This document shows, in pieces, positions 15,879 to 59,589 of a DNA stretch of 64,000 nucleotides. The stretch spans positions 325,186-389,185 of the forward strand of contig CAVOSJ010000006.1 of assembly GCA_963698885.1 (NCBI GenBank), read 5' to 3'. How positions within the stretch are numbered: position 1 is the stretch's first letter; each line of letters begins with the position of its first letter. The notes beneath the pieces were generated by a model. It saw only the letters and a program-made list of their open reading frames with translations. It made no database searches and had not been told where the DNA came from. This stretch comes from Nitrospirota bacterium (GTDB taxonomy: Bacteria > Nitrospirota > JACRHJ01). The position numbers were made by a program, and so were the translations under genes.

Positions 15879-16457
15879 ATGGTCAAACACGACCCGGAAG
15901 GCGACGACCTTCCTTCCGAGCTTGACGAGGAAGAAGACGAGGGGGGGCGGGCCGAAGAGGCTCTATTGGGTATAGGCGCCGCGGGCAGCCCGGAGACACC
16001 GTTGACGCCTTCCGTGATGGTGGCGGACGTGGGCGCGGCCTCTCAATCTTCAGCCGCGGAGGCGGCCAAGGCCAATACCTTAAACCGCTGCATCGCCAAG
16101 TTCATCGACATACTCATCGCGCTTCTTTTGGCGAGGCTCCCGGGTTACATAGGTTTCTGTTCAGGACTTTTGTATATCGGTATCGCCGACGGTGTGATGG
16201 GCGGCAGGAGTGTCGGGAAAAAGATTGCCGGTTTAAGGGTCTATTCGAAAAAGACGGGTCAACTGGCGGACTTCCGCGCGTCCATACTAAGGAACTCCAC
16301 GATAGGCGTCTTTTACATCTTCTCGCTTATCCCGTTCGTCGGCTGGGCCGCCGGGATACTTGGCCTTGGTTTCGAACTCCTGCTCATCATCGGCAGTCCC
16401 GAGGGCATGAGGCTTGGCGACGAGATTGCGCTTACGGTGGTGAAGGACGAGGAATAA
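15879..16457 (+). CDS. RDD-family membrane protein with acidic N-terminal extension
   Basis: 192 aa; acidic N-terminus followed by multi-TM RDD-like region (NRCIAKFIDILIALLLARLPGY..., GGRSVGKKIAGLRV); GGAGG RBS. Confidence 0.7.
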   Translation: MVKHDPEGDDLPSELDEEEDEGGRAEEALLGIGAAGSPETPLTPSVMVADVGAASQSSAAEAAKANTLNRCIAKFIDILIALLLARLPGYIGFCSGLLYIGIADGVMGGRSVGKKIAGLRVYSKKTGQLADFRASILRNSTIGVFYIFSLIPFVGWAAGILGLGFELLLIIGSPEGMRLGDEIALTVVKDEE

Positions 16458-16467
16458 AATAACATTC

Positions 16468-16562
16468 GTTACTTTTCTTTCGAGAAAGAAAAGTAACCAA
16501 AAGAAAGCTGGACTTAAAACCGGTTTTCTTTGGTTACTTTCTTTTTTCCAAAAGAAAGTAAC
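16468..16562. repeat. mosaic palindromic intergenic repeat, copy 2
   Basis: GTTACTTTTCTTTC-GA-GAAAGAAAAGTAAC ... GTTACTTTCTTTTTTCCAAAAGAAAGTAAC. Confidence 0.9.
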
Positions 16563-16584
16563 AAAGGGTTTTCAGGAGATATAG

Positions 16585-17616
<1,032 letters not shown>

Positions 17617-17619
17617 CCC

Positions 17620-17717
17620 GTTACCTTTTTAGTAAAAAGGTAACGCCAAAAACTTTTAAACTTTTTTGGCCCCGCTTTCTTTTGTGTTACTTTTCTTTCC
17701 CGCGAAAGAAAAGTGAC
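17620..17717. repeat. mosaic palindromic intergenic repeat, copy 3 (P hairpin - linker - R hairpin)
   Basis: GTTACCTTTTTAGTAAAAAGGTAAC GCCAAAAACTTTT ... GTTACTTTTCTTTC-CCGC-GAAAGAAAAGTGAC. Confidence 0.9.
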
Positions 17718-17732
17718 GGTTTGGATTCTTAG

Positions 17733-18611
17733 ATGTTTCGCTACCTTGCCAGGAACAAGGGCATCCTGCTCTTGTTCCTCATAATCCTTTCAAGCTTCCT
17801 GATTATTACCTCGCAGGTAAGAAAGCCCCGCAATGCCTCTTTGCCTGAACGGGCAGTAACGATGCTCCTATCCCCGTTCGCCATGGGGACGCAGGCGGTA
17901 AAAAACAAGGTTACAGGCGCCTGGGACGGTTACGCGGGCCTCGTATCCGCGAGGGACGAGAACCTTCAGCTTAAAGACGCGAACAGGCGGTTCTACCTGG
18001 AGAACCTCCGCCTCAGTGAAGCCCTCCTTCGAAATGCCCGGATGGCCGAGCTTTCGTCCGTGGCGAAAGATTTCGGGTACCCGGCCGTCCCCGCGCACGT
18101 CATCGGGCGGGACGCCTCATCGTGGTTCAATACCGCCTGGATAGACGCGGGCGAGAAAGACGGCCTGGCCAGGAACATGCCCGCCGCCGCCCATACGGGG
18201 GTCGTGGGACATATCTCCAAAGTCTCGGGCGGGACGTCCCGCCTCACGCTTCTCACCGACCCGGCAAGCGCCGTGTCCTGCATAACCCAGCGCACACGCG
18301 AGCCCGGCATACTTGTCGGGGAGGGCACCGAACTGTGCCGTTTCCAGTACGTGGGCAAACAGGCCGACATTGCCGTGGGCGACCTGCTCATCACCTCGGG
18401 GTTGGACGGGATATTCCCGGCGGGTCTGCCCGTGGGGCGGGTGGCGCAGGTGTCGAAGACGGGCCAGGGATACTTCGAGGAAATCTACGTGCGCCCTATA
18501 GCTGACATAAAGCGGATAGAGGAAGTTTCCATCGTCCGTTACCAGGCGAAGCCCCTCCCTGCGGGTGAGCAGTCAAAGCCGAGGGAAAAAGGTAACGCCA
18601 AAAACTTTTAA
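17733..18611 (+). CDS. mreC: rod shape-determining protein MreC
   Basis: 292 aa, N-terminal TM, coiled coil, beta-rich C-terminal domain; position between mreB and mreD; last 8 codons and the stop lie inside repeat copy 4. Confidence 0.85.
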   Translation: MFRYLARNKGILLLFLIILSSFLIITSQVRKPRNASLPERAVTMLLSPFAMGTQAVKNKVTGAWDGYAGLVSARDENLQLKDANRRFYLENLRLSEALLRNARMAELSSVAKDFGYPAVPAHVIGRDASSWFNTAWIDAGEKDGLARNMPAAAHTGVVGHISKVSGGTSRLTLLTDPASAVSCITQRTREPGILVGEGTELCRFQYVGKQADIAVGDLLITSGLDGIFPAGLPVGRVAQVSKTGQGYFEEIYVRPIADIKRIEEVSIVRYQAKPLPAGEQSKPREKGNAKNF

Positions 18612-18671
18612 GACAAGTTTAACTTGTCCCGTTTTCTTTTGCTGCTTTTCTTTTCCGTAAAAGAAAAGCAG
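18586..18671. repeat. mosaic palindromic intergenic repeat, copy 4 (degenerate; overlaps mreC 3' end)
   Basis: AAAAAGGTAACGCCAAAAACTTTTAA ... GCTGCTTTTCTTTTCCGTAAAAGAAAAGCAG. Confidence 0.8.
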
Positions 18672-18681
18672 GGATCTTAAA

Positions 18682-19206
18682 ATGAAGCTGAATATCTCCG
18701 TATACGTCACGTTTATAATAATCGCCGCCCTCCAGGCCGTGCTGGGAGACTCCCTTTCCATCTGGGGTATAAAACCCAGCCTGATGCTGGTCGCGGTCTA
18801 TGCCTTCTCCATCACGGAGAACGGCCCGTCGGGCATAATTTACGGGGCTTTCGCGGGCTTCCTGGACGACTGCCTCTCCGGCGGCTATATCGGCCTCTTC
18901 GTCTCGGGTTACGCCCTCGTGGGGTACCTGGCTGGCCGGGCGGGGAAGAAGTGGTTCAATATCGGCGAGTCCGCGAACTTCGCGGGTATTTTCGTACTCT
19001 CGCTCATCAACGGAATTTACACGGCCGCCCTGGTCGAGACGGTACGGGGCGGAAACGAGATTATATATATGTCCCTGAGGTACGGCCTTCCCCAGGCGTT
19101 CTACAACGCCCTGGCAGGGGCGCTTATCCTGTGGCTTTTCAGGTCGCGCCTGTCCCAGAGAGTGCCCTGGCTCAAGACCATCAGGCAGCTGCAGGTCCGG
19201 ATATAA
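18682..19206 (+). CDS. mreD: rod shape-determining protein MreD
   Basis: 174 aa polytopic membrane protein directly downstream of mreC and abutting mrdA. Confidence 0.7.
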   Translation: MKLNISVYVTFIIIAALQAVLGDSLSIWGIKPSLMLVAVYAFSITENGPSGIIYGAFAGFLDDCLSGGYIGLFVSGYALVGYLAGRAGKKWFNIGESANFAGIFVLSLINGIYTAALVETVRGGNEIIYMSLRYGLPQAFYNALAGALILWLFRSRLSQRVPWLKTIRQLQVRI

Positions 19207-21300
19207 ATGAAGTTCAATGGAAACGGCATCCACGGCGAGGGGGACGGCGCGGGCGACATAAAAAAGCGCCTGTGGCTGCTTAGCGTCTGCGTCCTGGTCT
19301 TTTTCGCGGTCATAGTCTTAAGGCTCTGGTACCTCCAGGTGATAAAGGGCTCGTACTACCGCGAGCTCTCCGAGAATAACCGCATCCGCATCATCAGCAT
19401 CCGCCCTCCCAGGGGAATCATCTACGACAGAAACGGTATCCCGCTGGCCGCCAATACGCCCAGCTACACCATAACCTTCACCCCCGAAGACGCGAAGGGG
19501 ATGCCGCAGGTGACGGCGAAGCTGGCCTCCATCATCGGGGCGACGCAGTCGGAGCTGGAGGGTTTTATCAGGTCGGAGAAGTACCGGAACCCCTACCAGC
19601 CTATACGGGTGCGGGAGAACGCCTCGTTCGCCGAGATATCGGAGGTCGAGGCGGCGAAGGACGACCTGCCCGGCGTGTCGGTGGAGGTGGAACTCAGGCG
19701 CTACTATCCTTACGGAGATTTCGCCTCGCACCTGCTCGGCTATATCGGCAAGATAACGCCGGACCAGCACGAGACGCCCGAGTATGCGGACCTGCCGCCG
19801 GATTTCCTAATCGGGCAGTACGGGATAGAAAAGCTCTTCGATAAAGTCATACGCGGCGTGCCCGGGAAGAAGGGCGTCGAGGTGGACGCGATGGGCCGCC
19901 AGAAAAGGATAATCTATACCGTGGAGCCGGTTGCCGGGGAAGACCTGGTCACCACGATTGACTATAGGGCGCAGGCTGCCGCGGAAGAGGCGATGAAGGG
20001 CCATGCCGGGGCGATTGTCGCCATCGACCCGCGAAACGGTGACGTGCTGGCGATGGTGTCGAAGCCCGGTTTCGACCCGAACATATTCCCCGTCGGCCTC
20101 ACCCGGAAAGACTGGCAATACCTTACGACGGACAAGGACAAGCCGCTGAATAACCGCGCGCTCCAGGGACAGTTCCCGCCGGGCTCGACGTTCAAGCTGG
20201 CCATGTCGCTCGCGGGGCTGGAGACAGGAAAGGCGAACCTGGAGGTCAACTGCACCGGCGGCTGGGGCTTCGGAGGCAGGGTCTTCCACTGCTGGGATAA
20301 GAAGGGGCACGGCCGCGTCCAGCTGCACATGGCCATAGTGGAGTCCTGCGACGTGTTCTTCTACAACCTCGGCAACAACATGGGTATAGACAACATCGCA
20401 AAGTACGCCAATTACCTGGGACTGGGGATGCCCACCGGCATCGGCCTCAGGGAAGCGAAGGGTCTTATTCCTTCCACCGCGTGGAAGGAGAAGGTCCGCC
20501 ACTGCAAGTGGTATCCCGGCGAGACCATATCCTGCTCGATAGGCCAGGGCTACGTGAGCGTCACCCCGATACAGCTCGCCCGGATGACGGCTACCCTGAC
20601 GAACGGCGGGACGCTCTACCAGCCGCAGGTGGTGAGCCAGATAAGATACAGGGACGGCCAGATAAAGCAGTTCCCGAAAGTGGCCCTGTGGAAGGTCCCG
20701 GCCAAGCAGCAGGACCTGGACATTATAAAGGACGGGATGACGGGCGTCGTCTGGGACCCCAGGGGCACCGCTCACGCGGCGCAGTCGGACAGGGTGATTA
20801 TCGGCGGCAAGACCGGCACGGCGCAGGTGATTGGCCTTGGCAAGGGTAAAGGCATGGATTACAAGGACCACGCCTGGTTCGTGGGGGCGGCCCCGATGGA
20901 CAACCCGAAAATAGCCATCTGCGTCCTGGTGGAGCACGGAGGGCACGGCGGCTCGGTGTCGGCGCCGATGGCGAAGCAGGTCAGTCGAGGCGTACCTGCG
21001 ATAGACGACAAGACGATTGCCCGGAAGAACGGCTTCGGAAACCTTACCGGCATCTTCCTTACAAAGGCGGTAAAGACTTTCAGCAATATCACCGGGAGCC
21101 GCCTGGCGGCATTCAGGACGATGACGGGCGCGGCGAAGACCAGGACGCTCCTTGTCAGTAACACGGAAAAAAATAATACGAAGGTAAAACCTGCGGATAA
21201 GCGGAAAAAAGAGGACAAAAAGAATCCGCACTCAAAGGCGCACGCGAAGCCGCGTGAGGCCCTGCCGGAAAAGAAGATGAAACTGAAGAAAAGGGCTTAA
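19207..21300 (+). CDS. mrdA: penicillin-binding protein 2 (peptidoglycan D,D-transpeptidase MrdA) with Lys-rich C-terminal tail
   Basis: 697 aa; N-terminal TM, PBP dimerisation domain, transpeptidase domain (STFK, SCS, KTGTA-type blocks). Confidence 0.9.
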   Translation: MKFNGNGIHGEGDGAGDIKKRLWLLSVCVLVFFAVIVLRLWYLQVIKGSYYRELSENNRIRIISIRPPRGIIYDRNGIPLAANTPSYTITFTPEDAKGMPQVTAKLASIIGATQSELEGFIRSEKYRNPYQPIRVRENASFAEISEVEAAKDDLPGVSVEVELRRYYPYGDFASHLLGYIGKITPDQHETPEYADLPPDFLIGQYGIEKLFDKVIRGVPGKKGVEVDAMGRQKRIIYTVEPVAGEDLVTTIDYRAQAAAEEAMKGHAGAIVAIDPRNGDVLAMVSKPGFDPNIFPVGLTRKDWQYLTTDKDKPLNNRALQGQFPPGSTFKLAMSLAGLETGKANLEVNCTGGWGFGGRVFHCWDKKGHGRVQLHMAIVESCDVFFYNLGNNMGIDNIAKYANYLGLGMPTGIGLREAKGLIPSTAWKEKVRHCKWYPGETISCSIGQGYVSVTPIQLARMTATLTNGGTLYQPQVVSQIRYRDGQIKQFPKVALWKVPAKQQDLDIIKDGMTGVVWDPRGTAHAAQSDRVIIGGKTGTAQVIGLGKGKGMDYKDHAWFVGAAPMDNPKIAICVLVEHGGHGGSVSAPMAKQVSRGVPAIDDKTIARKNGFGNLTGIFLTKAVKTFSNITGSRLAAFRTMTGAAKTRTLLVSNTEKNNTKVKPADKRKKEDKKNPHSKAHAKPREALPEKKMKLKKRA

Positions 21301-21306
21301 GCTTAA

Positions 21307-22428
21307 ATGGCTGACAGGCACAAAAGGATAATTTCCAACTTCGATATAAATTTCCTGATTGCAGTCGCGGCGCTCATCGGCATCGGCCTGACCGCGGTTT
21401 ACTCCGCAACCTACAGCATGAGCGGCGGCAGCCATGCGTTATTCAAGAAGCAGCTCGTCTGGATAATATTCGGGCTGGTGACGATGGCCGGCCTCGCCTT
21501 CTTCGATTACCGCCGCCTGGAACGCTGGGGGTACGTCCTGTACGGGATTGCGATAGCGCTCCTTCTGGCCACGCTCGCCGTCGGGCATTCGGGCATGGGC
21601 GCGCAGAGGTGGCTCCCGCTGGGGCCGTTCGCCTTCCAGCCGTCCGAGGTGGCGAAGCTCTGCATAATAATCGCATTGGCCAAGTATTTCTCGGAGGACA
21701 GAATAACAAGCGGGCACACTCTTCGCGAGCTGATCAAGCCGTTTTTGCTCGTGATAGTCCCGGTTGCCCTTGTGATAAAACAGCCGGACCTGGGCACCGG
21801 GCTCATGTTCCTTTTCATATTCTGCGCGGTCGTCATAGTCGCGGGGATAAGGATAAAATCGTTCCTGTACCTGGTGGTGACCGCGGCGCTCTCGGCCCCG
21901 CTCGTATGGGGAATCGCCTGGAGACACCTGAAGGACTATCAGAAGAAACGCCTCACCATGTTCCTCTCGCCGGAGCTGGACCCGGCGGGCGCGGGCTATC
22001 ATATCATACAGTCGAAGATCGCCATCGGCTCCGGCAGTCTCACGGGCAAGGGATTTCTGCACGGGACGCAGAGCCAGTTAAGTTTCCTTCCCGAGCGGCA
22101 CACGGATTTTATTTTCTCCGTAATCTCGGAGGAATGGGGGTTCATCGGCTCCATAACCGTCCTTGCGGTGTACCTGTTCATCGTGCTCTGGGGGATAGAG
22201 ACCGCGCAAAAGTCCAAGGACCGTTTCGGCTCGCTTATCGCCGTGGGCGCGGTCGCGATGATATTTTTCCATATCGTGATAAACATCGGGATGACAGTGG
22301 GCATAATGCCGGTCGTGGGCGTGCCGCTCCCGCTCGTCAGCTACGGCGGGACATCGGCGCTTACGACATTGATTGCCCTGGGATTACTCGCCAGCGTGAA
22401 TCTGAGACGGTTCAAGCTATTTTATTAA
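21307..22428 (+). CDS. rodA: peptidoglycan glycosyltransferase RodA (SEDS family)
   Basis: 373 aa, 10-TM FtsW/RodA/SpoVE-family protein directly after mrdA. Confidence 0.9.
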   Translation: MADRHKRIISNFDINFLIAVAALIGIGLTAVYSATYSMSGGSHALFKKQLVWIIFGLVTMAGLAFFDYRRLERWGYVLYGIAIALLLATLAVGHSGMGAQRWLPLGPFAFQPSEVAKLCIIIALAKYFSEDRITSGHTLRELIKPFLLVIVPVALVIKQPDLGTGLMFLFIFCAVVIVAGIRIKSFLYLVVTAALSAPLVWGIAWRHLKDYQKKRLTMFLSPELDPAGAGYHIIQSKIAIGSGSLTGKGFLHGTQSQLSFLPERHTDFIFSVISEEWGFIGSITVLAVYLFIVLWGIETAQKSKDRFGSLIAVGAVAMIFFHIVINIGMTVGIMPVVGVPLPLVSYGGTSALTTLIALGLLASVNLRRFKLFY

Positions 22429-22431
22429 ACC

Positions 22432-22528
22432 CTTTACTTTCTTTTCGAGAAAAGAAAGTAACAAAGAAAAGCTGGACTGAAAGTCTCGCTTTCTTTTGCT
22501 ACTTTTCTTTCACGGGAAAGAAAAGTAG
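22432..22528. repeat. mosaic palindromic intergenic repeat, copy 5
   Basis: CTTTACTTTCTTTTC-GA-GAAAAGAAAGTAAC ... GCTACTTTTCTTTC-ACGG-GAAAGAAAAGTAG. Confidence 0.9.
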
Positions 22529-28567: not shown

Positions 28568-28664
28568 GGAGGCATTCCTTCCAGAACCTCATTATTCGCA
28601 ACCGCGCGTAAGTCGCTAATCTCTGTTTTACGCTCAACGATGAGCTTCTTCCAGGAACGCCTCC
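28568..28664 (-). repeat. structured ~95-bp element R1 (tandem duplicate of R2), closed by an 11-bp terminal stem
   Basis: GGAGGCATTCC...GGAACGCCTCC; near-identical partner at 28804-28896; the terminal stem is fully paired (with one G.U) only on the minus-strand transcript. Confidence 0.7.
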
Positions 28665-28803: not shown

Positions 28804-28896
28804 GGAGGCATTCCTTCCAGAACCTCATTATTCGCAACCGCTCGTCAGCCGTTAATTTATTTTACGCTCAACGATGACCTCTTCAGGAACGCCTCC
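28804..28896 (-). repeat. structured ~95-bp element R2 (tandem duplicate of R1), immediately 3' of the UDG gene
   Basis: GGAGGCATTCCTTCCAGAACCTCATTATTCGCAACCGC...TTTTACGCTCAACGATGA...CAGGAACGCCTCC. Confidence 0.7.
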
Positions 28897-30469: not shown

Positions 30470-30644
30470 GTCAGCCCGTTTTGACCTCTGAACGTCCGCT
30501 ATTTAAATTTAACAGGTTTTTTCGGAATACGCATGGGCGGGGATGTTGCATAACGCGCGCGGGCGTATGAGAAAGAGAGGGGCGGTCAGATGCTTTGGTG
30601 CGGGTTTTTATTCCCGATTCTGAAACCGGCGTTAATGATGAGCT

Positions 30645-31134
30645 TTATTTGTCAGTAGCAGCTTCAAGTTGGTTTATTAAAAGTTCCCAATTATTACGAC
30701 TCATTTCATCTTCATGCATTTTTTGTAAAATTATCTCACGTCCGAATTCAAATTTTTCGCCTACGTCATTTTTTACGTAGTTTTGATTTGCTGCCGCAGC
30801 ATCTAATAGTTTAAAATCCATTTCAATTTCTTCAGGCTTCCGGAAGTTATTTTTTTTAACATGGATTAATAACTTATGAAATGCAGTTGTTGTAAATTTT
30901 TTCTTGCTGTCCCAGGATGTTAATAAAGAGATACCGAGTTTCATAAAAATAATCATCCATTAAAACTATCTCCTGTGTAAGAGCATCGAAATCAGCTCTT
31001 TTCATTTTTTTTCCAGTACGGGTATTATAGCTGTTAATTGCATCTTTAAAGTCATTAATATCATGTTCATTCAATTTATCCACCCGTGTCTTTGAGAATA
31101 CTTTAGATAATTTATCCATTTCTTCTGTATTCAA
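30645..31134 (-). CDS. hypothetical protein encoded in the low-GC island (about 163 aa); frame change at a homopolymer near 30895-30920
   Basis: ORFs 30874..31134 and 30645..30956 overlap in different frames across an A/T homopolymer; no family recognised. Confidence 0.5.
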
Positions 31135-34944: not shown

Positions 34945-35922
34945 TTAATATCCCGCCAGTTTCCGCGCCGCCGCAAGGACCTTGTCCTTGTTCGGCAGGA
35001 TGTACTCCTCCATCGGCCCGGCGAAGGCGTTATGCGTATCCTTCGAGCCTACGCGCATTACTGGCGCATCGAGGTACTCGAATGCGTTCTCCATGATTAT
35101 CGCCGAGACCTCGCCTCCGATGCCGCCGGTCAACCGGTCCTCGTGGACTATCAGCACCTTGCCCGTCTTCTTCGCGCAGGAGAGTATCGCCTGCCTGTCC
35201 AGCGGCAGGAGCGTCCGCAAATCCAGCACCTCGGACGATACGCCTTCCTTCTCCAGTTCTTCAGCCGCCGCGAGGCAGAGGTAGAGCGCGGAGCCGTAGG
35301 TGATGAAGCAGATGTCGTCGCCCTCGCGCCGGAGCGCCGCCTCTCCAATTGGGACGATATAGCTGTCCTCGGGAATATCCTCCTTTATGCGCCGGTACAG
35401 GAACTTGTGCTCGAAGTACACTACCGGATCGTCGTCCTGAATTGCGGCGATAAGGAGCCCCTTGGCGTCGAATGCCGTCGCGGGCGCGACGACTTTAAGC
35501 CCTGGCACGCGCGTGAACCAGGCCTCCGGGTTCTGCGAATGGAACAGCCCGCCCCGCACGCCGCTACCGGACGGGCAACGGACCACCATCGGGCATTTGG
35601 CCTTCCCGCCGTGCCTGTACCGAAGTGTCGCCGCCATGTTCACGAGCTGGTCGAACCCGCAGGAGATGAAATCCGCGAACTGCATCTCCGCCACCGGCCG
35701 CATCCCGGCGATAGCAAGCCCGACCGATGCGCCGTTGATGAGAGATTCGGAAATAGGGGTATCGATTACCCGCTCCGGGCCGAACTCCTCGAACAGCCCC
35801 TCCGTGGCCAGAAACGCCCCGCCCAGCGCGGCAATGTCCTCGCCCAGGAGCACGACGTCAGAGTCCAGCCGCATGGACTGCCGGAGCGCTTCGTTAATCG
35901 CTTTTATGTAAGTCAGTTCCAT
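34945..35922 (-). CDS. 2-oxoacid dehydrogenase E1 component beta subunit (transketolase-like)
   Basis: 325 aa; MELTYIKAINEALRQSM...VVLLGEDIA...typical E1-beta. Confidence 0.9.
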   Translation of the reverse strand: MELTYIKAINEALRQSMRLDSDVVLLGEDIAALGGAFLATEGLFEEFGPERVIDTPISESLINGASVGLAIAGMRPVAEMQFADFISCGFDQLVNMAATLRYRHGGKAKCPMVVRCPSGSGVRGGLFHSQNPEAWFTRVPGLKVVAPATAFDAKGLLIAAIQDDDPVVYFEHKFLYRRIKEDIPEDSYIVPIGEAALRREGDDICFITYGSALYLCLAAAEELEKEGVSSEVLDLRTLLPLDRQAILSCAKKTGKVLIVHEDRLTGGIGGEVSAIIMENAFEYLDAPVMRVGSKDTHNAFAGPMEEYILPNKDKVLAAARKLAGY

Positions 35923-35932
35923 TAAAACCTTT

Positions 35933-36027
35933 GTACTTTTCTTTCGGGAAAGAAAAGTACCAAAAGAAAGCTGGGCTTAAAAACAGTCCAAAAGTTTTTG
36001 GCGTTACCTTTTTCCCAAAAAGGTAAC
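35933..36027. repeat. mosaic palindromic intergenic repeat, copy 8 (inverse module order: R - linker - P)
   Basis: GTACTTTTCTTTC-GG-GAAAGAAAAGTAC ... AAAAGTTTTTGGC GTTACCTTTTTCCCAAAAAGGTAAC. Confidence 0.9.
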
Positions 36028-36031
36028 GAAT

Positions 36032-37000
36032 TTATACCGGCGTCGCGTACAGCCCCTCCATCGCCTCCGGGCCGTCCGGCTCCGGGGAGTATTCCGCGAA
36101 TTTCACCGCCTCGTCCACCACCGCCTTTACTTTGGCGCCCGTCTCTTCCATTATTTTCGCCACGTCGTACCCTTTCTTTTCGAGGAAGAACTCGTAGCGC
36201 TGGATGGGGTCGCGGCTTTCCCACTCGATAAGCTCCTCCTTCGCCCGGTACGAGGCCATGTCGTGTTCGCTGTGGCCGGAGTAGCGGTAGGTCTTGCATT
36301 CGATCAGCTCCGGTCCCTCGCCACGCCTCGCCTGGTCGATTGCATGCTCCACCGCGCGCAGGACGGCAAAGAGGTCGTTGCCGCTGCACACGTGCCCATG
36401 AAAGCCGTATCCGGCCGCCCTGTCCGCCACGTCCTCTACCGCCATCTGATTGGATTGGGGCGTGGAAAAAGCGTAGAAGTTGTTCTCGCAGACGAAAACG
36501 ACGGGGAGCTTATGGACGCCGGCGAAGTTCAGCGCTTCGTGGAAATCGCCCCTGGAGGACGCGCCCTCGCCGAAAAAGGCGACGACTACCCGCGGCTCCT
36601 TCCTGATTTTAAACTTCAAGGCGACACCGCAGGCGACCGGCAGGGACGAGGCAAGCATGGAGGTGGAGCCGACTACACCGTTCTCCAGGACGCCGGCGTG
36701 CAGGAACGAGTCCCTGCCCCCGGAGAAGCCCGTCTTTTTGCCCATTATCTGGGCCATCAGGAGGTTCGGGTCAACGCCCTTTACGAGGAACGCGCCCAGG
36801 TCGCGGTGCAGAGGGAAGATGAAATCGTCGGGCTTCAGTCTATAAACCGAACCGACGACTACAGCCTCCTGACCGAGGCCGGAGTAAACGCCGCCCGGTA
36901 TCTTACCCTGGTGGTGTAACTTGGAGACCCTGTCCTCAAACTCACGGACGAGGCGAAGGTGGTAATAGAGATCGAGGTCCTGGTCCACACGCCTCCTCAC
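36032..37000 (-). CDS. 2-oxoacid dehydrogenase E1 component alpha subunit (TPP-dependent)
   Basis: 322 aa; TPP-binding blocks (GEGASSRGDFHEALNFA...) typical of E1-alpha. Confidence 0.9.
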   Translation of the reverse strand: MRRRVDQDLDLYYHLRLVREFEDRVSKLHHQGKIPGGVYSGLGQEAVVVGSVYRLKPDDFIFPLHRDLGAFLVKGVDPNLLMAQIMGKKTGFSGGRDSFLHAGVLENGVVGSTSMLASSLPVACGVALKFKIRKEPRVVVAFFGEGASSRGDFHEALNFAGVHKLPVVFVCENNFYAFSTPQSNQMAVEDVADRAAGYGFHGHVCSGNDLFAVLRAVEHAIDQARRGEGPELIECKTYRYSGHSEHDMASYRAKEELIEWESRDPIQRYEFFLEKKGYDVAKIMEETGAKVKAVVDEAVKFAEYSPEPDGPEAMEGLYATPV

Positions 37001-37492
37001 TCACGCCAATTTAAATCCTTTATTCTTTTTGAGGTACGGGACCAGTCCACCCGCCTCGAGGATATCCGTCATAACCTGGGGCATCGGCGGGAACGGCAGC
37101 TCGATACCCTTGGTCTTATCCCTTAATACCCCGGCTTTAAGGTCCAGCTCGAGCTCGTCCCCGTCCTCTATCTGGTCGGTATCAACGCGTACAGCCGGCA
37201 TGCCGATATTTATGCAGTTCCGGAAGAAAATCCGGGCGAAGGACTTGGCGGCGACACATGAGGTCCCGGCCATTTTTATAATCACCGGGGCATGCTCGCG
37301 GGAGGAGCCCATGCCGAAATTTGTCCCGCCCACGACGAAGTCGCCGGGTTTTACCTGGGCCCTGAACTCGTCGCGTGCGTCCTCCAGGACGTGCTTGGTA
37401 AGCTCCGGCAGGTTCGTCCTCAGGTACGCGTACCGGCCAGCCGCGATTAAGTCAGTGCTTATATTGTCCCCGAACTTCCAGGCCCTTCCCAT
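37001..37492 (-). CDS. leuD: aconitase-family dehydratase small subunit (LeuD-like 3-isopropylmalate/homoaconitate dehydratase)
   Basis: 163 aa swivel-domain protein immediately downstream of the large subunit. Confidence 0.75.
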   Translation of the reverse strand: MGRAWKFGDNISTDLIAAGRYAYLRTNLPELTKHVLEDARDEFRAQVKPGDFVVGGTNFGMGSSREHAPVIIKMAGTSCVAAKSFARIFFRNCINIGMPAVRVDTDQIEDGDELELDLKAGVLRDKTKGIELPFPPMPQVMTDILEAGGLVPYLKKNKGFKLA

Positions 37493-37506
37493 GGAACCTC
37501 CAGACC

Positions 37507-37604
37507 GTTACCTTTTTGGAAAAAGGTAACGCCAAAAACTTTTGGACTGTTTTAAGCCCGGCTTTCTTTTGTGTTACTTTTCTTTCACCCGAAAGAAAAG
37601 TAAC
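37507..37604. repeat. mosaic palindromic intergenic repeat, copy 9 (between large and small dehydratase subunits)
   Basis: GTTACCTTTTTGGAAAAAGGTAAC GCCAAAAACTTTT ... GTTACTTTTCTTTC-ACCC-GAAAGAAAAGTAAC. Confidence 0.9.
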
Positions 37605-37607
37605 GGT

Positions 37608-38867
37608 TTATATATATTTTCTTGGGTCGGCAAGCTTCCCTTCGATGGCGGAGGCCGCGACCAGCGCGGGCGAGGCAAGGTAAACGAATGACTTGGGGTT
37701 TCCCATCCTGCCCTTGAAGTTCCGGTTTATGGAGGCGGCGCAGTTCTCGCCGTCGCCCAGGATACCTTCATGGCTTCCGGGGCATGCCCCGCATCCCGGC
37801 GAATTGATTACGCCGCCCGCATCCAGGAATATATCCATAAGACCTTCGGCCATCATCTTTCGATAGACGCTCTTGGTGCCCGGTGTTACGACGAGCCTTG
37901 AGCCGGGGGCGACATGCCTTCCCTTCAGCACCCTGGCCGCCGCCTCGAAATCCTCGAAATAACCGTTGGTCGTAGAGCCAAGGTACGCCTGCTGGATCGG
38001 GACGTCTTTGCAGTCCGGGTGCGAGATGGGCCTCGTGTTGTCCACCATGTGTGGGAAAGAGACCATCGGCTCAAGGCTGCCCGCGTCTATCTTGACTTCC
38101 CTGACGTACTTCGCGCCGGGGTCGCCCTTTATCTCCTTGAAATCACTCTCGCGCTTATTCTCGCGGAGCCAGTCCAGGGTATGCCCGTCCGATTCGAACA
38201 GGCCGCACTTCCCGCCGGCTTCCACGGCCATCGACGAAATAGTCGTCCTTCCGGGGATGGATAACCCCTCGATGGTATCCCCGAAGAACTCAAGGGACTG
38301 GTATGTCGCGCCGTCCGCGCCGATTAAGCCGATAAGGTAGAGGATGATGTCCTTGGAATATACCCCCGGCGAAAGCTTCCCGGTGACTTCCACCCGGATT
38401 GCCTCCGGGCACAGCATCCAGGTCTCGCCTGTGGCCATGGCGACCGCGATGTCAGTCGAGCCCATGCCGGTGGCGAAGGCACCCAATGCGCCGCCCTGGC
38501 AGGTATGGGAGTCCGCCCCGACCATCAGCATGCCGGGTGACGTGACCTGCTCGCCCAGGACCAGGTGGCTCACCCCGCCGCCTATGTCGGAGAGCATGCA
38601 GCCGGAGTCCCTGGCGTACTCGCGGAGCTTGACGTGCCCGGTGGAGACTTCCTTGAAGGAAGACGGGGAGGCGTGGTCTATAAATACGGCGGTATGGGAG
38701 GGGACTTTTGCAAGTCCCGCTCCCAGTTCCACAATCTTGTCAACCGTCAGGGGGCCGGTCCAGTCCTGCACGTAGGCGAAATCTACCTTCACCACGGTCA
38801 GCTCGCCTGCGTGTACCTCGTGCCCCGCATGCATGGAGATAAGTTTTTCAGCCAGGGTCAGCGGCAT
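37608..38867 (-). CDS. leuC: aconitase-family dehydratase large subunit (LeuC-like)
   Basis: about 420 aa; Fe-S ligand cysteines (CGACPGS region), aconitase fold blocks; start set at internal ATG 38867. Confidence 0.8.
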   Translation of the reverse strand: MPLTLAEKLISMHAGHEVHAGELTVVKVDFAYVQDWTGPLTVDKIVELGAGLAKVPSHTAVFIDHASPSSFKEVSTGHVKLREYARDSGCMLSDIGGGVSHLVLGEQVTSPGMLMVGADSHTCQGGALGAFATGMGSTDIAVAMATGETWMLCPEAIRVEVTGKLSPGVYSKDIILYLIGLIGADGATYQSLEFFGDTIEGLSIPGRTTISSMAVEAGGKCGLFESDGHTLDWLRENKRESDFKEIKGDPGAKYVREVKIDAGSLEPMVSFPHMVDNTRPISHPDCKDVPIQQAYLGSTTNGYFEDFEAAARVLKGRHVAPGSRLVVTPGTKSVYRKMMAEGLMDIFLDAGGVINSPGCGACPGSHEGILGDGENCAASINRNFKGRMGNPKSFVYLASPALVAASAIEGKLADPRKYI

Positions 38868-38871
38868 ATTC

Positions 38872-39486
38872 TTACGCCGCCCTTCCCAGGGCCTCATCCA
38901 GTTTCAGGGATGTCTGAAGGCGCTTCTCCACCACGTTCCAGTCTATGTTCTGGAAGAACGCGTCAAGGTATGCCGCGCGCTTTACGCCGTAGTCTATCAT
39001 GTAGGCGTGCTCATAGACGTCCAGTATCAGAAGCGGGATCTCATTCCAGATAGCGCCGATATCGTGCATATCCATCATGTAGTTGTGCAAAGTGTTGTCG
39101 TTCATGCTCCAGGAGAGCACGGCCCAGCCGCGTCCGGACATTCCGACCGCCTTGAACTGTGCCATCCAGTTATCGAACGAACCCCAGCGCTCTTTTATCA
39201 TCTCCGCTATCCTGCCGCCTGGCGCGCCTCCCTTGCCGCCGAGGTTCTCGAAATACCACTCGTGCAGAAAAACGGCGTTTGTCGTAAAGGACTTCTCCTT
39301 GAACATCTCCCGGATAACGGCGTAAGTGGCGTTTGCGCCTTCGGTCGGCGCTTTTTTTATCTCTTCCTCAAACATGTTCAATTTATCCACGTATCCCTTA
39401 TAGAGCACGTCCCTGTGCTCCTGGATCTGCCTGTCGGAAATGCCCTTGAGTTTACCTTCCAGCTTGAATTCCTTTACTTTGTGCAT
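38872..39486 (-). CDS. Fe/Mn-family superoxide dismutase-like protein
   Basis: about 204 aa; SOD-like blocks incl. DVYEHAYMIDYG (variant of the DxWEHAYY signature); AGGA RBS before internal ATG 39486. Confidence 0.65.
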   Translation of the reverse strand: MHKVKEFKLEGKLKGISDRQIQEHRDVLYKGYVDKLNMFEEEIKKAPTEGANATYAVIREMFKEKSFTTNAVFLHEWYFENLGGKGGAPGGRIAEMIKERWGSFDNWMAQFKAVGMSGRGWAVLSWSMNDNTLHNYMMDMHDIGAIWNEIPLLILDVYEHAYMIDYGVKRAAYLDAFFQNIDWNVVEKRLQTSLKLDEALGRAA

Positions 39487-39728
39487 GATTGTACCGTCCT
39501 TTCTAATACGCGAGGCTAAGACAAAAAAGAAATGCGGCAAGGATTCTGCCGCAGGCGGCCGACTTCAAAAAGTATAACAAAGATTTAAGCAGTGTCAATT
39601 TTATAGAACAATTTTAAGTATTTTGATTAATAGGCGCGACTTGCGGACGGTAAAAATCCGTGGTATAAATTTATACAAAGGAATTTATTTTTATTGACGG
39701 TGCAATTCCGTTGCCTGAAGGAGACCTT

Positions 39729-41262
39729 ATGGAGCATAACCCCTCAACCCGGAACCAGGAAGTAAATGACCGTAGACTGCTTGAGGCGAGCCTCGACCCG
39801 ATCGTGGCGATAAACCTGGAAGGCAAGTTCGCCTACGTCAATGAGGCTATGGTAAGGGTCACGGGCATCCAGAGGGACGCCCTCATCGGGTCGGACCATT
39901 ACGGCTATCTTAACCGAGCCCGAAAAGGGGAAGGAGGGCCTTCTGCAGGCTATAACGAAAGGGTCCATCACCGACTATCCCCTGACCTTCAAGCACACGG
40001 ACGGGCACCTGACGGACGTACTTTGCAACGCCTCCGTTTACCGCGATGAAGAGGGCAAAGTCGCCGGCATCTTCGCGGAGGTAAGAGATATTACCGAGAG
40101 AAAAAGGGCCGAAGAGGCCCTCCGAGAGGCCGAAGCATATAACAGGAGCCTGCTGGAGGCGAGCCTCGACCCGCTCGTGGCAATAAATCTGGAGGGCAAG
40201 TACGTGTACGTCAACGAGGCTACGGAGAAGGTCACGGGCCTTTCGAGGGACGCTCTGATAGGGTCGGACTTCACAGGCTACTTCACCGAGCCCGAAGAGG
40301 CGAGAAAGGGTTACTTGCTGGTTTTTGCGACAGGGTCCGTCACCGACTATCCCCTCACCATCCGGCACAAGGACGGGCATCTGACGGACCTGCTTTGCAA
40401 CGCCTCCGTTTACCGCGATGAATGGGGCAAAGACGCCGGCATCTTCGCGGTGTCGAGAGATATTACCGAGAGAAAACGGGCCGCCGAGGCTCTTCGAGAG
40501 GCCGCAGCGTATAACAGAAGCCTGCTGGAGGAGGTAAGAAAATTAAACCTGGAGCTGGAGCAGAGGGTACGCGACCGGACTGCCCAGTTAGAGTCCGCCA
40601 ACTGCGAACTGGAATCCTTCAGCTACTCGGTCTCCCACGACCTGCGCGCGCCCCTTCGGAGCCTGGACGGCTTTTCCCAGGCCATCCTGGAGGAATATTC
40701 GGACAGGTTAGATGAAAAAGGGAAAGACTACCTGGGAAGGATCCGGCTTGCCAGCCAGAGGATGGGCCATCTTATAGACGACATGCTGAAGCTATCCCGG
40801 GTGACAAGGAGCGAGATGCGCTTTGAAAACGTGGACCTGACGGGGATTGCGAGAGAAATAGGAGATGAACTGAGTAGGGCGGAGCCGGGGCGCAAGGTCG
40901 AATTCATTATAGAAGAAGGCGTCACGGCATGGGGCGACTTGCCGCTGCATGCGGATGGTTATGCAGAACCTGCTGTCGAATTCCTGGAAATTCACATCCA
41001 GGCACGAGAAGGGGGTAATACAGTTCGGCGTCTCGGAGATGGGGGGGAAGAAAATTTATTTCGTGAAGGACGACGGCGCCGGTTTTGACATGGACTATCC
41101 GACAAACTCTTTACCCCATTCCAGCGTCTGCATTCCACGGCGGAGTTTCCGGGGACGGGCATTGGCCTCGTAATCGCAAAAAGGATTCTAAAGCGGCACG
41201 GGGGCGAAATCTGGGCTACGGCGAAACCGGAAAAAGGGGCGACCTTTTATTTCTCATTTTGA
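39729..41262 (+). CDS. tandem-PAS sensor histidine kinase (PAS-PAS-HisKA-HATPase_c); at least three apparent indels (near 39912, 40940, 41108)
   Basis: ORFs 39711..40049, 40177..41088, 40949..41173 and the frame ending at 41262 piece together into one kinase (H-box [13 protein letters not shown]; G-box GTGIGL). Confidence 0.8.
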
Positions 41263-57915: not shown

Positions 57916-59589
57916 ATGAGGCTGATATCGGTTTTAACGTCTTCATTATTAATCCTGCTCTTATCCGTGAGCGCCGCTTTTGCCGACGGACAGAAGGTCA
58001 CAAGCGACCTGCTGGACGTGCTTAAGGCAAAGGGCGTGTTAGACGACGCGTCTTACGACAGCCTGAAGAAAAAAGAGGCCGCCTCCCCGACCCCGGCGGC
58101 GAGTACACTACAACTTCTCGATGTCCTTAGGGCGAAGGGCGTGCTGGGCGAGGAGGACTACAACAGGCTGTCCAGGGAGGCCGCGCCCACAGCCGTCCCG
58201 GCAGTCGCAACCAACCCCGCACCCGCGGCCGTGCCCGTGGCGGAAACCGTAACCGCGCCCGAGCCAGCTACAGCGCCCGCGCCGACTGCCGCGGCATCGC
58301 CCGGAGGGCCGGAAAGGCCGATAGACGGTACCCTGACAAAGGTTGAAGATAGTTTCGCGAGGGTGACGGGGGATATTGTAAGGCTGAAAATCGGCGGCTA
58401 CTTACAGGCCGGCTATTTAAACGACGACGCAGGCTTCTCTTACGGCGCGCCGCCTAATAACTTGTTCAGCCCGACCTCCGGCAATCAGTTCTTCGTCAGG
58501 CGGGCAAGGCTCATTTTCGATTTCGGCGTGGGCCCGAAGGTGGGCGCGCGGGTCTCGATTGAGCCAGCGGTCGACCTCAACACGGCAAGCACGACCAGCG
58601 GCGGCAGGAGCATCCTCCGGGACGCCTATGGCTGGACCGACTACATCCCTTATACAAGAATAACCCTGGGCCAGTTCAAGACCCCGTTCGGACTGGAGGG
58701 CGTGGAGTCGTTATCGGACAACCCCACGATTAACCGCTCCATGGTCACGAACCTTGTGCACTACCCGCTCCTCAGGGACATAGGCGTCATGGCCGCCTGG
58801 AACTTCAAAACGGATGTCTCTGGCCTGCCGCTTGGCGCGCAATGGGCGGTGGCGCTCGTCAACGGCACGGGATACAACCTCCCGGACGACAACGACCAGA
58901 AAGACCTCGTGTTCAGAGGGACAGTCAATCCGCTTGTGGAAGGCCTTAACATCGGAGGTTCTCTCTATGGGGGCAAGACGCACGTAACGCCGGCTGCGGG
59001 CGCCGCCTTCAATAAATACCACGACAGCTGGGCCGCCGAGGCCGAGTATGTCCCGCCCTTCCTGAAAGGCTTGAAGCTCAGGGGCGAATATCTCTGGAAC
59101 AGGCAGTACTATACCAAATATTACAGCTACGCGAGCGTTACAGGCACGGCCAGCAACACCCCGCCCGCTACCGCGTCTACAGTGGGGACCCTCCCCAATA
59201 ACCCCAGCACTGCAAACGCCGCCCGCACGGTCCATACCGCCGGATGGTATGCGCTGGCGGTTTACAGGGTGGACGGACTGCAGGGCATCGGGAGCTACCT
59301 TAACGGCCTTGAGCCCCTTGTACGCTACGACACCATGAACGAGGACGAGGACGGGACTCCCTGGGTATTTACCAGCGGCTCGGGCGCTGCAACGAAGACA
59401 CTCACAGTCAATTCGCACACCAGATACCGTACAACGGTGGGTCTAAACTACTACTTCAATAATTACGCGCGGCTGATGCTGGACTACGAGATGATACATG
59501 CGGACGCGGGCCTCAGGAGGGCTTCAATAGAGTCCATAGACCTTATATCGCACCGCCTCTTCACGACGCTCTTGCAGGTGAAGTTTTAA
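57916..59589 (+). CDS. outer-membrane beta-barrel porin (possibly phosphate-selective OprO/P-like)
   Basis: signal peptide ...VSAAFA; Ala/Pro-rich linker; beta-rich body ending in C-terminal Phe (...LQVKF). Confidence 0.5.
   Translation: MRLISVLTSSLLILLLSVSAAFADGQKVTSDLLDVLKAKGVLDDASYDSLKKKEAASPTPAASTLQLLDVLRAKGVLGEEDYNRLSREAAPTAVPAVATNPAPAAVPVAETVTAPEPATAPAPTAAASPGGPERPIDGTLTKVEDSFARVTGDIVRLKIGGYLQAGYLNDDAGFSYGAPPNNLFSPTSGNQFFVRRARLIFDFGVGPKVGARVSIEPAVDLNTASTTSGGRSILRDAYGWTDYIPYTRITLGQFKTPFGLEGVESLSDNPTINRSMVTNLVHYPLLRDIGVMAAWNFKTDVSGLPLGAQWAVALVNGTGYNLPDDNDQKDLVFRGTVNPLVEGLNIGGSLYGGKTHVTPAAGAAFNKYHDSWAAEAEYVPPFLKGLKLRGEYLWNRQYYTKYYSYASVTGTASNTPPATASTVGTLPNNPSTANAARTVHTAGWYALAVYRVDGLQGIGSYLNGLEPLVRYDTMNEDEDGTPWVFTSGSGAATKTLTVNSHTRYRTTVGLNYYFNNYARLMLDYEMIHADAGLRRASIESIDLISHRLFTTLLQVKF

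What the first reader, a model, noticed from the sequence alone, without database searches (positions are those of the whole stretch)
18570..18671. The 3' end and stop codon of mreC are supplied by a repeat copy; repeats also sit inside operons
The last codons of mreC (...EKGNAKNF-stop) are encoded by the P/linker module (GAAAAAGGTAACGCCAAAAACTTTTAA). The same module occurs at other sites where it is non-coding, and read antisense it gives the ...GNAKNFW... segment in spurious ORF 35922..36389. This suggests the element inserted into the end of mreC and replaced its native C-terminus. Copies between co-directional operon genes imply the hairpins do not fully terminate transcription.
Basis: seen in the sequence. 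Interest (0 to 1): 0.4.

Follow-up and report, generated by a model that had tools for sequence, protein, structure and literature searches.

The report
Repeat copy supplies MreC's tail and stop
In this uncultured Nitrospirota genome, a 5'-truncated copy of a short hairpin-forming interspersed repeat now encodes the last 7-8 amino acids and the stop codon of the cell-shape gene mreC. This kind of event is real here but already known from mobile repeats in other bacteria.

Summary
mreC (17733-18611) ends ...EKGNAKNF-TAA inside 18586-18611. That stretch matches a module found 9 times in the window (0 expected by chance). The similarity to the repeat family continues to about 18678.

Five relatives (78-98% nucleotide identity) have no repeat at this site. 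In them mreC ends ...(A/G)V(K/R)(K) and its stop overlaps the mreD start (ATGA or TAATG). Two other relatives carry a full-length copy after an intact mreC stop. The window, and a second independent assembly, carry a copy that lacks the left arm of the first hairpin. It is fused to mreC at a GGGAAAAAGG microhomology.

The repeat is a modular three-hairpin element, MITE/REP-like, and abundant in this Nitrospirota clade. It usually starts 2-8 nt after a TAA stop and lies in the direction of transcription between operon genes. Among 76 copies, only mreC and one PTA_PTB gene read into it.

The new tail lies outside the MreC domain, so it is probably neutral. The insertion also removed the mreC/mreD overlap.

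Transcriptional read-through is plausible but untested.

Verdict: a new member of a known kind, of modest interest.

The parts
17733..18611 (+). mreC, 292 aa. The Pfam MreC barrel core covers residues 123-268. The last 7-8 codons and the stop are repeat-derived.
18570..18585 (+). Native 3' codons of mreC (Q S K P R, and the first base of E), shared with orthologues up to CCG. Positions 18582-18592 (AGGGAAAAAGG) form the junction zone, where native GGGAAAAAGG and the repeat's loop+arm GGGAAAAAGG cannot be told apart.
18586..18596 (+). Right arm of hairpin 1 (AAAAAGGTAAC). Its partner arm GTTACCTTTTT is missing, so hairpin 1 cannot form. Read as codons (E)KGN.
18597..18611 (+). Linker module GCCAAAAACTTTTAA, read as A K N F stop. 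The TAA at 18609-18611 is the mreC stop codon.
18612..18628 (+). Middle hairpin GACAAGT-TTA-ACTTGTC. It is a variant of the family's GGACnnGTTTAACnnGTCC unit and starts directly after the stop codon.
18629..18641 (+). CCGTTTTCTTTTG, the pre-hairpin module (family consensus CCGGCTTTCTTTTG).
18642..18671 (+). Hairpin 2: CTGCTTTTCTTTT - CCGT - AAAAGAAAAGCAG, a 13-bp stem.
18671..18681 (+). Right end of the copy. It holds a Shine-Dalgarno-like GGGA (18671-18674), then a 7-nt spacer before the mreD ATG.
   Evidence: inference for the Shine-Dalgarno role
18682..19206 (+). mreD, 174 aa. Its start codon is the same as in the orthologues. In repeat-free relatives it overlaps the mreC stop.
17620..17717 (+). 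Full-length reference copy between mreB and mreC: hairpin 1, linker, middle hairpin, hairpin 2.
16469..16561 (.). Double-hairpin (type A) copy between the RDD-domain gene and mreB. Absent in outgroup L007. Deleted to remnants in L005 and L004.
22434..22528 (.). Type A copy between rodA and the radical SAM gene. Absent in L007, where stop and start overlap as TAATG. Inverted in L005, L004 and L006.

Best explanation
The window comes from an uncultured Nitrospirota bacterium. Its genome is littered with a roughly 95-110-nt modular palindromic repeat:

AAAACC | GTTACCTTTTT-loop-AAAAAGGTAAC | GCCAAAAACTTTTAA + small variable hairpin | CCGGCTTTCTTTTG | GTTACTTTTCTTTC-loop-GAAAGAAAAGTAAC | GGTTTT

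A second arrangement is built from two of the T/C-rich hairpins.

The ancestral mreC/mreD junction had no repeat. mreC ended ...AVKK and its stop overlapped the mreD ATG. In the lineage of the window, a copy of the repeat came to lie between the two genes. Either at insertion or through a later small deletion, everything from the last 7 native codons of mreC through the left arm of hairpin 1 was lost. A deletion would have run between the native GGGAAAAAGG and the identical loop+arm sequence of the element. The mreC frame now runs straight into the right arm and linker of the element and stops at the first in-frame stop, the TAA of CTTTTAA.

What is shown:
- The tail and stop are repeat sequence.
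- The ancestral state was repeat-free and overlapping.
- The copy is 5'-truncated.

What is inferred:
- The new 8-9-residue tail is functionally neutral. It lies beyond the conserved domain, in a variable Pro/Lys/Glu-rich tail.
- mreD translation no longer depends on overlap coupling. It would use a GGGA 7 nt upstream of its ATG, at the element's right end.
- The operon is still read through the two remaining hairpins.
- The repeat spreads as a non-autonomous mobile element (MITE/REP-like). Selection filters its copies towards sites just after TAA stops and towards the direction of transcription.
For: Repeat identity of the tail:
- 9 matches, 0 expected.
- module-by-module alignment of copies.

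Ancestral state:
- orthologue C-termini.
- the alignment shows an approximately 87-nt insert relative to L001 and L003.
- five repeat-free junctions with overlapping stop/start, in lineages from 78% to 98% nucleotide identity (identities).

Truncation:
- this is the only copy with no left arm at all.

A possible intermediate:
- L008 and L006 carry a full-length copy after an intact stop. In L008, reading past that stop in the mreC frame gives ...EKGNAKNF-stop in the same frame.
- deletions inside or across elements are common in these genomes (remnants at the 16469, 25107 and 26747 sites).

Reality of the junction:
- an independent assembly (L002/L009, 2-3% diverged, different repeat content elsewhere) has the identical junction.

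Tail outside the domain:
- Pfam MreC covers residues 123-268 of 292.

Family behaviour:
- abundant in three Nitrospirota MAGs.
- presence/absence, inversion and deletion polymorphism at orthologous sites.
- of 76 copies, 45 sit just after a co-oriented ORF's stop (38 TAA).
- TAA is enriched next to repeats (26 of 31, against 115 of 266 elsewhere).
- stems are kept by compensatory changes (89 of 104 hairpins).
- a second gene (PTA_PTB, L055) also reads into a copy.

Precedents in the literature: PMC5896051 and PMC2759123.
Against: - The left junction does not fit a simple slippage deletion. Recombination at GGGAAAAAGG would give CCGGGGAAAAAGGTAAC and a 26-codon tail in another frame. The window has CCGAGGGAAAAAGGTAAC, with one extra A, so a second event or an imprecise join is needed.
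- The window's copy is only marginally closer to the L008 mreC/mreD copy than to unrelated copies (score 38 against 37). Descent from an L008-like full-length insertion is therefore not shown.
- No target-site duplication could be established.
- No transposase with matching ends was found in the 692 kb held (a weak test). Mobility is inferred only from polymorphism.
- Site patterns among the window, L005, L009 and L004 show all four combinations for two neighbouring sites. That requires recombination or recurrent gain and loss.
- No expression or proteomic data are available.
Confidence: 0.9

Rival explanations
1. One-step origin. A copy that was already 5'-truncated was joined directly to the mreC 3' end, by abortive transposition or microhomology-mediated repair at AAAAAGG. 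It would be independent of the full-length copies seen in L008 and L006, and no full-length intermediate ever existed.
For: - The window's mreC upstream of the junction is L005-like (EQSKP), not L008-like (EEEPG).
- The copy is not clearly orthologous to the L008 copy.
- The extra A at 18582 fits an imprecise join better than clean slippage.
Against: - Among 65 copies, no other lacks the left arm outright, so truncated insertion is not a habit of this family.
- Secondary deletions of resident copies, by contrast, are seen repeatedly.
- The right junctions of the window and L008 copies are alike...AGG(G/A)(A/G)TCT(T)AAA(A)TGAAG.
Confidence: 0.35
2. The repeats are selected intercistronic RNA modules that set mRNA stability, processing or translation between operon genes, rather than merely tolerated selfish DNA. 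On this view the copy at mreC/mreD was fixed because it uncouples MreD synthesis from MreC.
For: - Strong positional regularity: hairpin 1 starts 2-8 nt after the stop, and 45 of 76 copies are co-oriented with the upstream gene.
- Stems are maintained by compensatory changes.
- Many copies end 0-40 nt before the next start codon, some with an AGG/AAGG-type Shine-Dalgarno sequence at the element's end.
- From my own knowledge, not retrieved here: E. coli REP elements within about 15 nt of a stop codon are reported to lower expression of the upstream gene (Liang, Rudd and Deutscher 2015).
Against: - The same sites are empty, inverted or deleted in close relatives, with no visible consequence for gene integrity.
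- A minority of copies lie in reverse orientation within operons, for example 37507-37603 between the aconitase-family subunit genes.
- The positional pattern can arise from target preference for AT-rich TAA sites in a genome with GC3 near 0.75, combined with purifying selection.
- No expression data are available.
Confidence: 0.15
3. Assembly artefact. The mreC end was wrongly joined to a repeat copy when interspersed repeats were collapsed during assembly.
For: The genome holds many near-identical 100-nt repeats. Some related assemblies show frameshifts, for example L009, where mreC, mrdA and rodA are split.
Against: - The join is between unique mreC sequence and the repeat, with only about 10 nt of shared sequence.
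- The identical junction occurs in a second assembly from another sample, which differs by 2-3% and in repeat content at 17620 and 26747.
- All five mre/mrd genes in the window are intact.
Confidence: 0.03
4. Chance or reverse direction. Either the mreC tail is native and only resembles the repeat, or the repeat's linker module originated from the mreC 3' end.
For: The native sequence GGGAAAAAGG already resembles part of the hairpin arm.
Against: - The 26-nt match is followed by about 65 nt of further family architecture.
- Seven relatives at this site lack the tail.
- More than 70 copies elsewhere are non-coding.
Confidence: 0.02

Closest known systems
Coxiella burnetii QMITE1/QMITE2 (PMC5896051)
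   Same: These are short interspersed hairpin-forming elements that overlap the 3' ends of functional genes by 1-50 bp. In strain Dugway, an indel links enhC to a QMITE2 copy, and the copy supplies the C-terminal residues, with the stop immediately downstream. In strain RSA 493, a stop precedes the same copy. This parallels the window/L009 allele against the L008/L006 allele here.
   Different: There is no sequence relationship and the host phylum differs. Here the copy is 5'-truncated and replaces an overlapping stop/start junction inside an essential morphogenesis operon. The tail is replaced (7 residues become 9), not extended by 33 residues.
Enterobacterial RU-1/ERIC-type small mobile sequences fused to ORF 3' ends (PMC2759123)
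   Same: Fusion of the repeat eliminated the normal stop codon. The added residues lie beyond the conserved domain and are absent from orthologues (for example ECA3499 and ECA4072).
   Different: Those elements are 103-168 bp and form a single long hairpin. The element here is a mosaic of three short hairpins, with a strong preference for the position directly after TAA stops.
REP / BIME / REPIN elements of proteobacteria (PMC3337134 for REPIN/RAYT)
   Same: Short imperfect palindromes occur in extragenic space, often between genes of one operon. They combine into mosaic arrangements, in either orientation, at high copy number. The double-hairpin type here resembles a REPIN (two inverted units and a spacer).
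   Different: No RAYT gene was found or could be searched for properly. The conserved 5' tetranucleotide differs (GTTAC here). The stems are AU-rich, whereas REP stems are GC-rich.
Correia elements (Neisseria) and other TA-targeting MITEs
   Same: The size is about 100 nt, the ends are inverted repeats, and the elements lie between co-transcribed genes and are co-transcribed. (From my own knowledge.)
   Different: A TA duplication could not be shown here. The flanks fit either an extended inverted repeat (AAAACC...GGTTTT) or an A/T-rich target. No parent IS is known.

Membership tests
MITE (non-autonomous miniature transposon) | Small size (under about 300 bp) and many dispersed copies | tested here: met
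   Elements are 95-110 nt. There are 14 sites in the 64-kb window and more than 70 distinct copies in related MAGs.
MITE (non-autonomous miniature transposon) | Terminal inverted repeats | tested here: met
   The flank consensus is AAAACC-GTTAC(C/T)TTTT ... AAAAG(T)AAC-GGTTTT over 63 copies.
MITE (non-autonomous miniature transposon) | Target-site duplication | tested here: inconclusive
   TAAA/TTAAA occurs on both sides of some copies (22434, 25107, L008). This is indistinguishable from an extended inverted repeat. Comparisons with empty sites are blurred by divergence.
MITE (non-autonomous miniature transposon) | Presence/absence polymorphism at orthologous sites | tested here: met
   Seen at the mreC/mreD, mreB/mreC, RDD/mreB and rodA/radical-SAM sites.
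MITE (non-autonomous miniature transposon) | A parent IS or transposase with the same ends | not tested
   Only a crude tblastn was run, using a Y1-transposase sequence recalled from memory, against the 692 kb held. It gave nothing below E=0.4. No whole genome was available to scan.
REP/BIME/REPIN | Extragenic imperfect palindromes of 20-40 nt, combined in mosaic clusters | tested here: met
   There are three hairpin units (11-14 bp stems) and two arrangements, H1-linker-H2 and H2b-middle-H2.
REP/BIME/REPIN | Association with a RAYT (REP-associated tyrosine transposase) flanked by REPs | not testable with these tools
No RAYT was seen in the DNA held (low power).
Intrinsic (Rho-independent) terminator | A GC-rich stem immediately followed by a U-tract, located at the end of a transcription unit | tested here: not met
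   Stems have 3-4 G-C pairs out of 13-15. The tails are GGTTT(T)A or GGATCTT. The copies lie between mreB, mreC, mreD and after rodA, inside gene clusters.
Any curated Rfam RNA family | A score at or above the gathering threshold | tested here: not met
   The whole window gave only the Moco riboswitch. A permissive scan of 16400-18750 gave only far-sub-threshold generic miRNA-hairpin matches.

The most novel reading that the evidence does not exclude
The repeat family is not just tolerated junk. On this reading it is an operon-punctuation cassette. Its ends abut or regenerate a TAA stop for the upstream gene. Its right end can carry a Shine-Dalgarno sequence for the downstream gene. Its hairpins, kept intact by compensatory changes, set differential mRNA stability or translation between cistrons. 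The mreC/mreD case would then be a natural experiment in which overlap-based translational coupling of two essential shape genes was replaced by such a cassette.
Probability: 0.15. Interest if true: 0.55.

Novelty: new member of a known kind. Interest (0 to 1): 0.3.

Why it matters
This is a clean, datable example of a short mobile repeat rewriting the end of an essential, conserved gene and dismantling a stop/start overlap. All three allelic states (empty, full-length and fused) survive in close relatives.

For annotation, C-terminal differences among MreC orthologues in this clade are repeat-derived rather than functional. ORFs that read through these repeats, such as 35922..36389, are spurious.

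The repeat family itself appears undescribed. No literature on it was found, and it matches no Rfam family. Its unusually regular placement after TAA stops in Nitrospirota operons could be used to study how hairpin elements affect polycistronic expression.

The underlying phenomenon is already documented in Coxiella and in enterobacteria.

Tried and rejected
- **Metagenome scan for more alleles.** I scanned metagenome contigs for the mreC 3' end (GCGGNNGAGCAGTCRAAGCCG), hoping to find further alleles or an intermediate. It returned 78 stretches. Screening them for the upstream mreC motif left a single chance match and no mreC.
- **Source record.** An exact-sequence look-up of the window's MreC found no record.
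- **Orthology of the window and L008 copies.** I tested this by similarity ranking. The result was not decisive (38 against 37).
- **Transposase search.** A crude tblastn for an IS200/IS605-type Y1 transposase in the DNA held found nothing, but the test has low power.
- **TA or TTAA(A) target-site duplication.** The evidence is suggestive at three sites but not general.
- **Right end always carrying the downstream Shine-Dalgarno sequence.** Rejected as a general rule. In many copies the GGAG lies beyond the conserved end.
- **Filler sequence in L008/L006.** I looked for the 17-nt filler preceding their full-length copy (GACCAGGGGCTAAAGGC) elsewhere. It occurs only at that site.
- **Other ORFs ending inside an element.** ORF 37029..37529(+), which seems to stop inside copy 37507, is a shadow of the aconitase-family small-subunit gene 37001..37492(-).
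- **Rfam.** No family matched.

Full report
**What is at the coordinates**

The window carries the gene run mreB (16585-17616), mreC (17733-18611), mreD (18682-19206), mrdA (19207-21300) and rodA (21307-22428), all on the plus strand. Pfam confirms MreC and MreD.

mreC ends CCG AGG GAA AAA GGT AAC GCC AAA AAC TTT TAA. The 25-mer AAAAGGTAACGCCAAAAACTTTTAA at 18587-18611 occurs 9 times in the window with at most 2 mismatches. None is expected by chance.

A module scan and side-by-side listing show the family architecture:
- Hairpin 1: GTTACCTTTTT-loop-AAAAAGGTAAC.
- Linker: GCCAAAAACTTTT(AA/GG/AG).
- A small variable hairpin.
- CCGGCTTTCTTTTG.
- Hairpin 2: GTTACTTTTCTTTC-loop-GAAAGAAAAGTAAC.

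A second arrangement, with two T/C-rich hairpins around a middle hairpin, occupies five further sites (11466, 16469, 22434, 25107, 26747). RNA folding gives the three expected hairpins, with z-scores of -5 to -6 for full copies.

The copy at the end of mreC runs from 18586 to about 18678. It has every module except the left arm of hairpin 1. It is the only copy in the window, and the only one of 65 copies examined in related genomes, that lacks this arm outright. One other copy there, L046, has only a degenerate arm.

**The orthologue test**

A protein search places the window in uncultured Nitrospirota. The closest MreC proteins end as follows:

| Protein(s) | C-terminal end |
|---|---|
| Window and P0007 | ...EQSKPREKGNAKNF |
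| P0001 (94% identical) | ...EQSKPGKKAVKK |
| P0003, P0004, P0005 | ...EQSKPDK(K/Q)AVK(K) |
| P0002, P0006 | ...GK(K/T)GPGAKG |
| Outgroup P0008-P0011 | ...PGEKGV(K/R) |

I fetched the DNA around these genes. The mreC/mreD junction exists in three states:
- **Empty.** L005 (97-98% nucleotide identity to the window), L004 (about 90%), L088, L089 and L007 (about 78%) have no repeat. The mreC stop overlaps the mreD start...GCCGTGAAAAAATGAAG...GTGAAATAATGAAG...GTACGGTAATGAAG.
- **Full-length.** L008 (about 93%) and L006 (about 89%) have a complete element, left arm included, placed after an intact mreC stop.
- **Fused.** The window and L002/L009 have the truncated copy fused to the reading frame, with identical junction sequence.

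L009 is a separate genome. It differs from the window at 2-3% of positions and lacks the copies at 17620 and 26747. The junction is therefore not an assembly accident. The ancestral state is clearly the repeat-free overlap, and the last 8-9 residues of the window's MreC are lineage-specific and repeat-encoded.

**How the fused allele arose**

The native sequence just before the old tail is CCGGGGAAAAAGG. The element's loop plus right arm is (G)GGAAAAAGGTAAC. The junction thus lies in a 10-nt microhomology.

In L008, reading on past the stop in the mreC frame gives ...EKGNAKNF-stop in the same frame. The simplest path therefore has two steps. First, a full-length copy inserts between the genes. 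Second, a deletion runs from the native GGGAAAAAGG to the element's copy of it, removing the old tail, the stop and the left arm.

Such secondary deletions are common here. L005 and L004 keep only remnants at the 16469 site, L004 at 25107, and L009 at 26747.

Two facts keep this from being settled:
- A clean slippage would give CCGGGGAAAAAGGTAAC and a 26-codon tail in another frame. The window has one extra A (CCGAGGG...).
- The window's copy is only marginally more similar to the L008 copy than to unrelated copies.

A one-step join of a truncated copy remains a live alternative.

**What the repeat is**

An exact-pattern scan of one genome per species found the hairpin-1/linker module dozens of times in three Nitrospirota MAGs (MFD00991.bin.2.105, MFD06091 bin59, MFD01299.bin.2.118). 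Elsewhere it found only single matches in unrelated organisms, which are probably chance matches.

Position and orientation:
- Of 76 distinct copies with enough flank, 45 lie directly after the stop of a credible co-oriented gene. That stop is TAA in 38 cases.
- Hairpin 1 starts 2-8 nt after the stop.
- TAA makes up 26 of 31 stops that precede a repeat arm, against 115 of 266 other stops. TGA is 0 of 31 against 78 of 266.
- Many copies end 0-40 nt before the next start codon.

Structure and dynamics:
- The flanks show an extended inverted repeat, AAAACC|GTTAC...GTAAC|GGTTTT.
- The outer 4 bp of hairpin 2 are fully complementary in 89 of 104 distinct hairpins, across at least seven different complementary variants. 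The stems are therefore maintained.
- Orthologous sites are filled, empty, inverted (22434) or partly deleted in close relatives.
- The two neighbouring sites mreB/mreC and mreC/mreD show all four presence/absence combinations among the window, L005, L009 and L004. That implies recombination or recurrent gain and loss.

This is the behaviour of a MITE- or REP/BIME-like mobile repeat. I could not establish a target-site duplication, nor find a transposase with matching ends. No Rfam family matches. A literature search found no description of such repeats in Nitrospirota.

**How unusual the mreC case is**

Among the 76 copies, three ORFs appear to stop inside an element:
- mreC.
- ORF 37029..37529, which is a shadow of the aconitase-family small-subunit gene on the other strand.
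- A genuine PTA_PTB-domain gene in L055. Its last six codons (IKPLPF) and its TGA come from the left end and loop of hairpin 1.

Reading into the repeat is thus rare but not unique in this family.

**Consequences**

These points are inferred, not shown.
- The Pfam MreC domain ends at residue 268 of 292. The region beyond it is a variable Pro/Lys/Glu-rich tail across orthologues. Exchanging GKKAVKK for REKGNAKNF is therefore probably neutral.
- The larger change is architectural. The overlap that presumably coupled mreD translation to mreC is replaced by a 70-nt spacer. The spacer holds a 7-bp hairpin directly after the stop and a 13-bp hairpin. The 13-bp hairpin's 3' end abuts a GGGA that lies 7 nt before the mreD ATG.
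- The hairpins are AU-rich and lack a proper U-tract. A consensus scan nonetheless flags some of them as weak terminator-like sites.
- Essential genes follow them without obvious promoters, so read-through is the reasonable expectation. This is untested.

ORF 35922..36389 is on the minus strand, and so is that repeat copy. It lies between an E1_dh gene (36032..37000) and a gene with transketolase pyrimidine-binding and C-terminal domains, presumably its E1 beta partner (34945..35922). The GNAKNFW segment is therefore the element read in its own sense and in the same frame as in mreC, not antisense. The ORF is indeed spurious.

**Comparison with what is known**

Repeat-derived C-termini and stop codons are documented in two systems:
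- Coxiella QMITEs overlap the 3' ends of functional genes. In strain Dugway, enhC is linked to a QMITE2 copy by an indel, while in strain RSA 493 a stop precedes the same copy (PMC5896051).
- Enterobacterial RU-1/ERIC-type elements have eliminated the normal stop of genes such as ECA3499 (PMC2759123).

The present case is a new instance of that kind, in a different phylum and with an apparently undescribed repeat family. Its distinctive points are that all three allelic states are preserved in close relatives, and that the event dismantled a stop/start overlap inside the mre operon.

**Verdict**

Novelty: a new member of a known kind. Interest is about 0.3.

Noticed in passing
L004 13467; L008 3514; L043 492; L050 5678; L063 30; L065 20; L067 6892; L078 2645; L084 4307; outside the main repeat in L023 4418, L030 2776, L056 1613, L071 4427, L079 4673: A second repeat of about 37 nt (TGTCTTCGCTATCGCTCTGGACAGGTAAATCATCTC, itself a small hairpin) sits exactly in the loop of the T/C-rich hairpins of the main repeat in many related loci. 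It also occurs on its own. It looks like a tiny element that targets hairpin loops. It was not found in the window.
   Followed up: partly
L088 about 255-310 (mreB/mreC copy); L006 at the site orthologous to window 26747: A different nested insert of about 53 nt (AGGGGCCCCCACCGCTTACCGAGGGTATTATCCGAGGTTAGCGCGGGGCGGTCC and a close variant) interrupts copies of the main repeat in two relatives.
   Followed up: no
window 22434-22528 versus L005, L004 and L006 at the same site: The double-hairpin element between rodA and the radical SAM gene has the opposite internal orientation in three relatives, with identical flanks. This indicates either in-place inversion or re-insertion.
   Followed up: partly
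L055 7290-8000 (minus strand): A PTA_PTB-domain gene reads into the left end of a repeat copy. Its last six codons (IKPLPF) and its TGA stop come from hairpin 1. This is a second case of a repeat-supplied C-terminus.
   Followed up: yes
window 17620-17717 versus L009 and L004: The mreB/mreC spacer is a 38-nt non-repeat sequence in L009 and L004, but holds a full element in the window, L005, L008, L006, L088 and L089. Together with the mreC/mreD site, this gives all four presence/absence combinations among very close genomes, implying recombination or recurrent gain and loss.
   Followed up: partly
window 57682-57826 (+): A molybdenum cofactor riboswitch (RF01055, 44.2 bits, above the gathering score) lies directly downstream of repeat copy 57535-57628 and upstream of the gene 57916..59589.
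   Followed up: no
window 37507-37603: This repeat copy lies between two aconitase-family subunit genes on the minus strand (37608..38897 and 37001..37492), in reverse orientation to transcription. The co-orientation rule is therefore not absolute.
   Followed up: yes
window 39759-40531: Two tandem direct repeats with a period of about 372 nt (251 nt at 84% identity and 138 nt at 81%) overlap ORFs 39711..40049 and 40177..41088.
   Followed up: no
window 49045-49091 and 51287-51333; also 28568-28627 and 28804-28863: Two pairs of short direct repeats (42 nt at 95% identity; 60 nt at 88% identity) that are unrelated to the main family. They may be duplicated regulatory regions.
   Followed up: no
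window about 30600-31900: An AT-rich stretch whose ORFs have GC3 of 0.27-0.43, against about 0.75 elsewhere. It may be foreign DNA.
   Followed up: no
L045, L083 (contig CAVZCJ010000016.1): A 500-kb contig labelled as an Alphaproteobacteria MAG, from the same sample as the Nitrospirota MAG, carries three typical copies of the repeat. It may be mis-binned or mislabelled.
   Followed up: no
L009 (contig_68345 of ERZ25039590): In this relative, mreC, mrdA, rodA and the radical SAM gene are each split or shortened. This looks like indel errors in the assembly, so its gene calls (for example the 230-aa P0007) should not be taken as real truncations.
   Followed up: no
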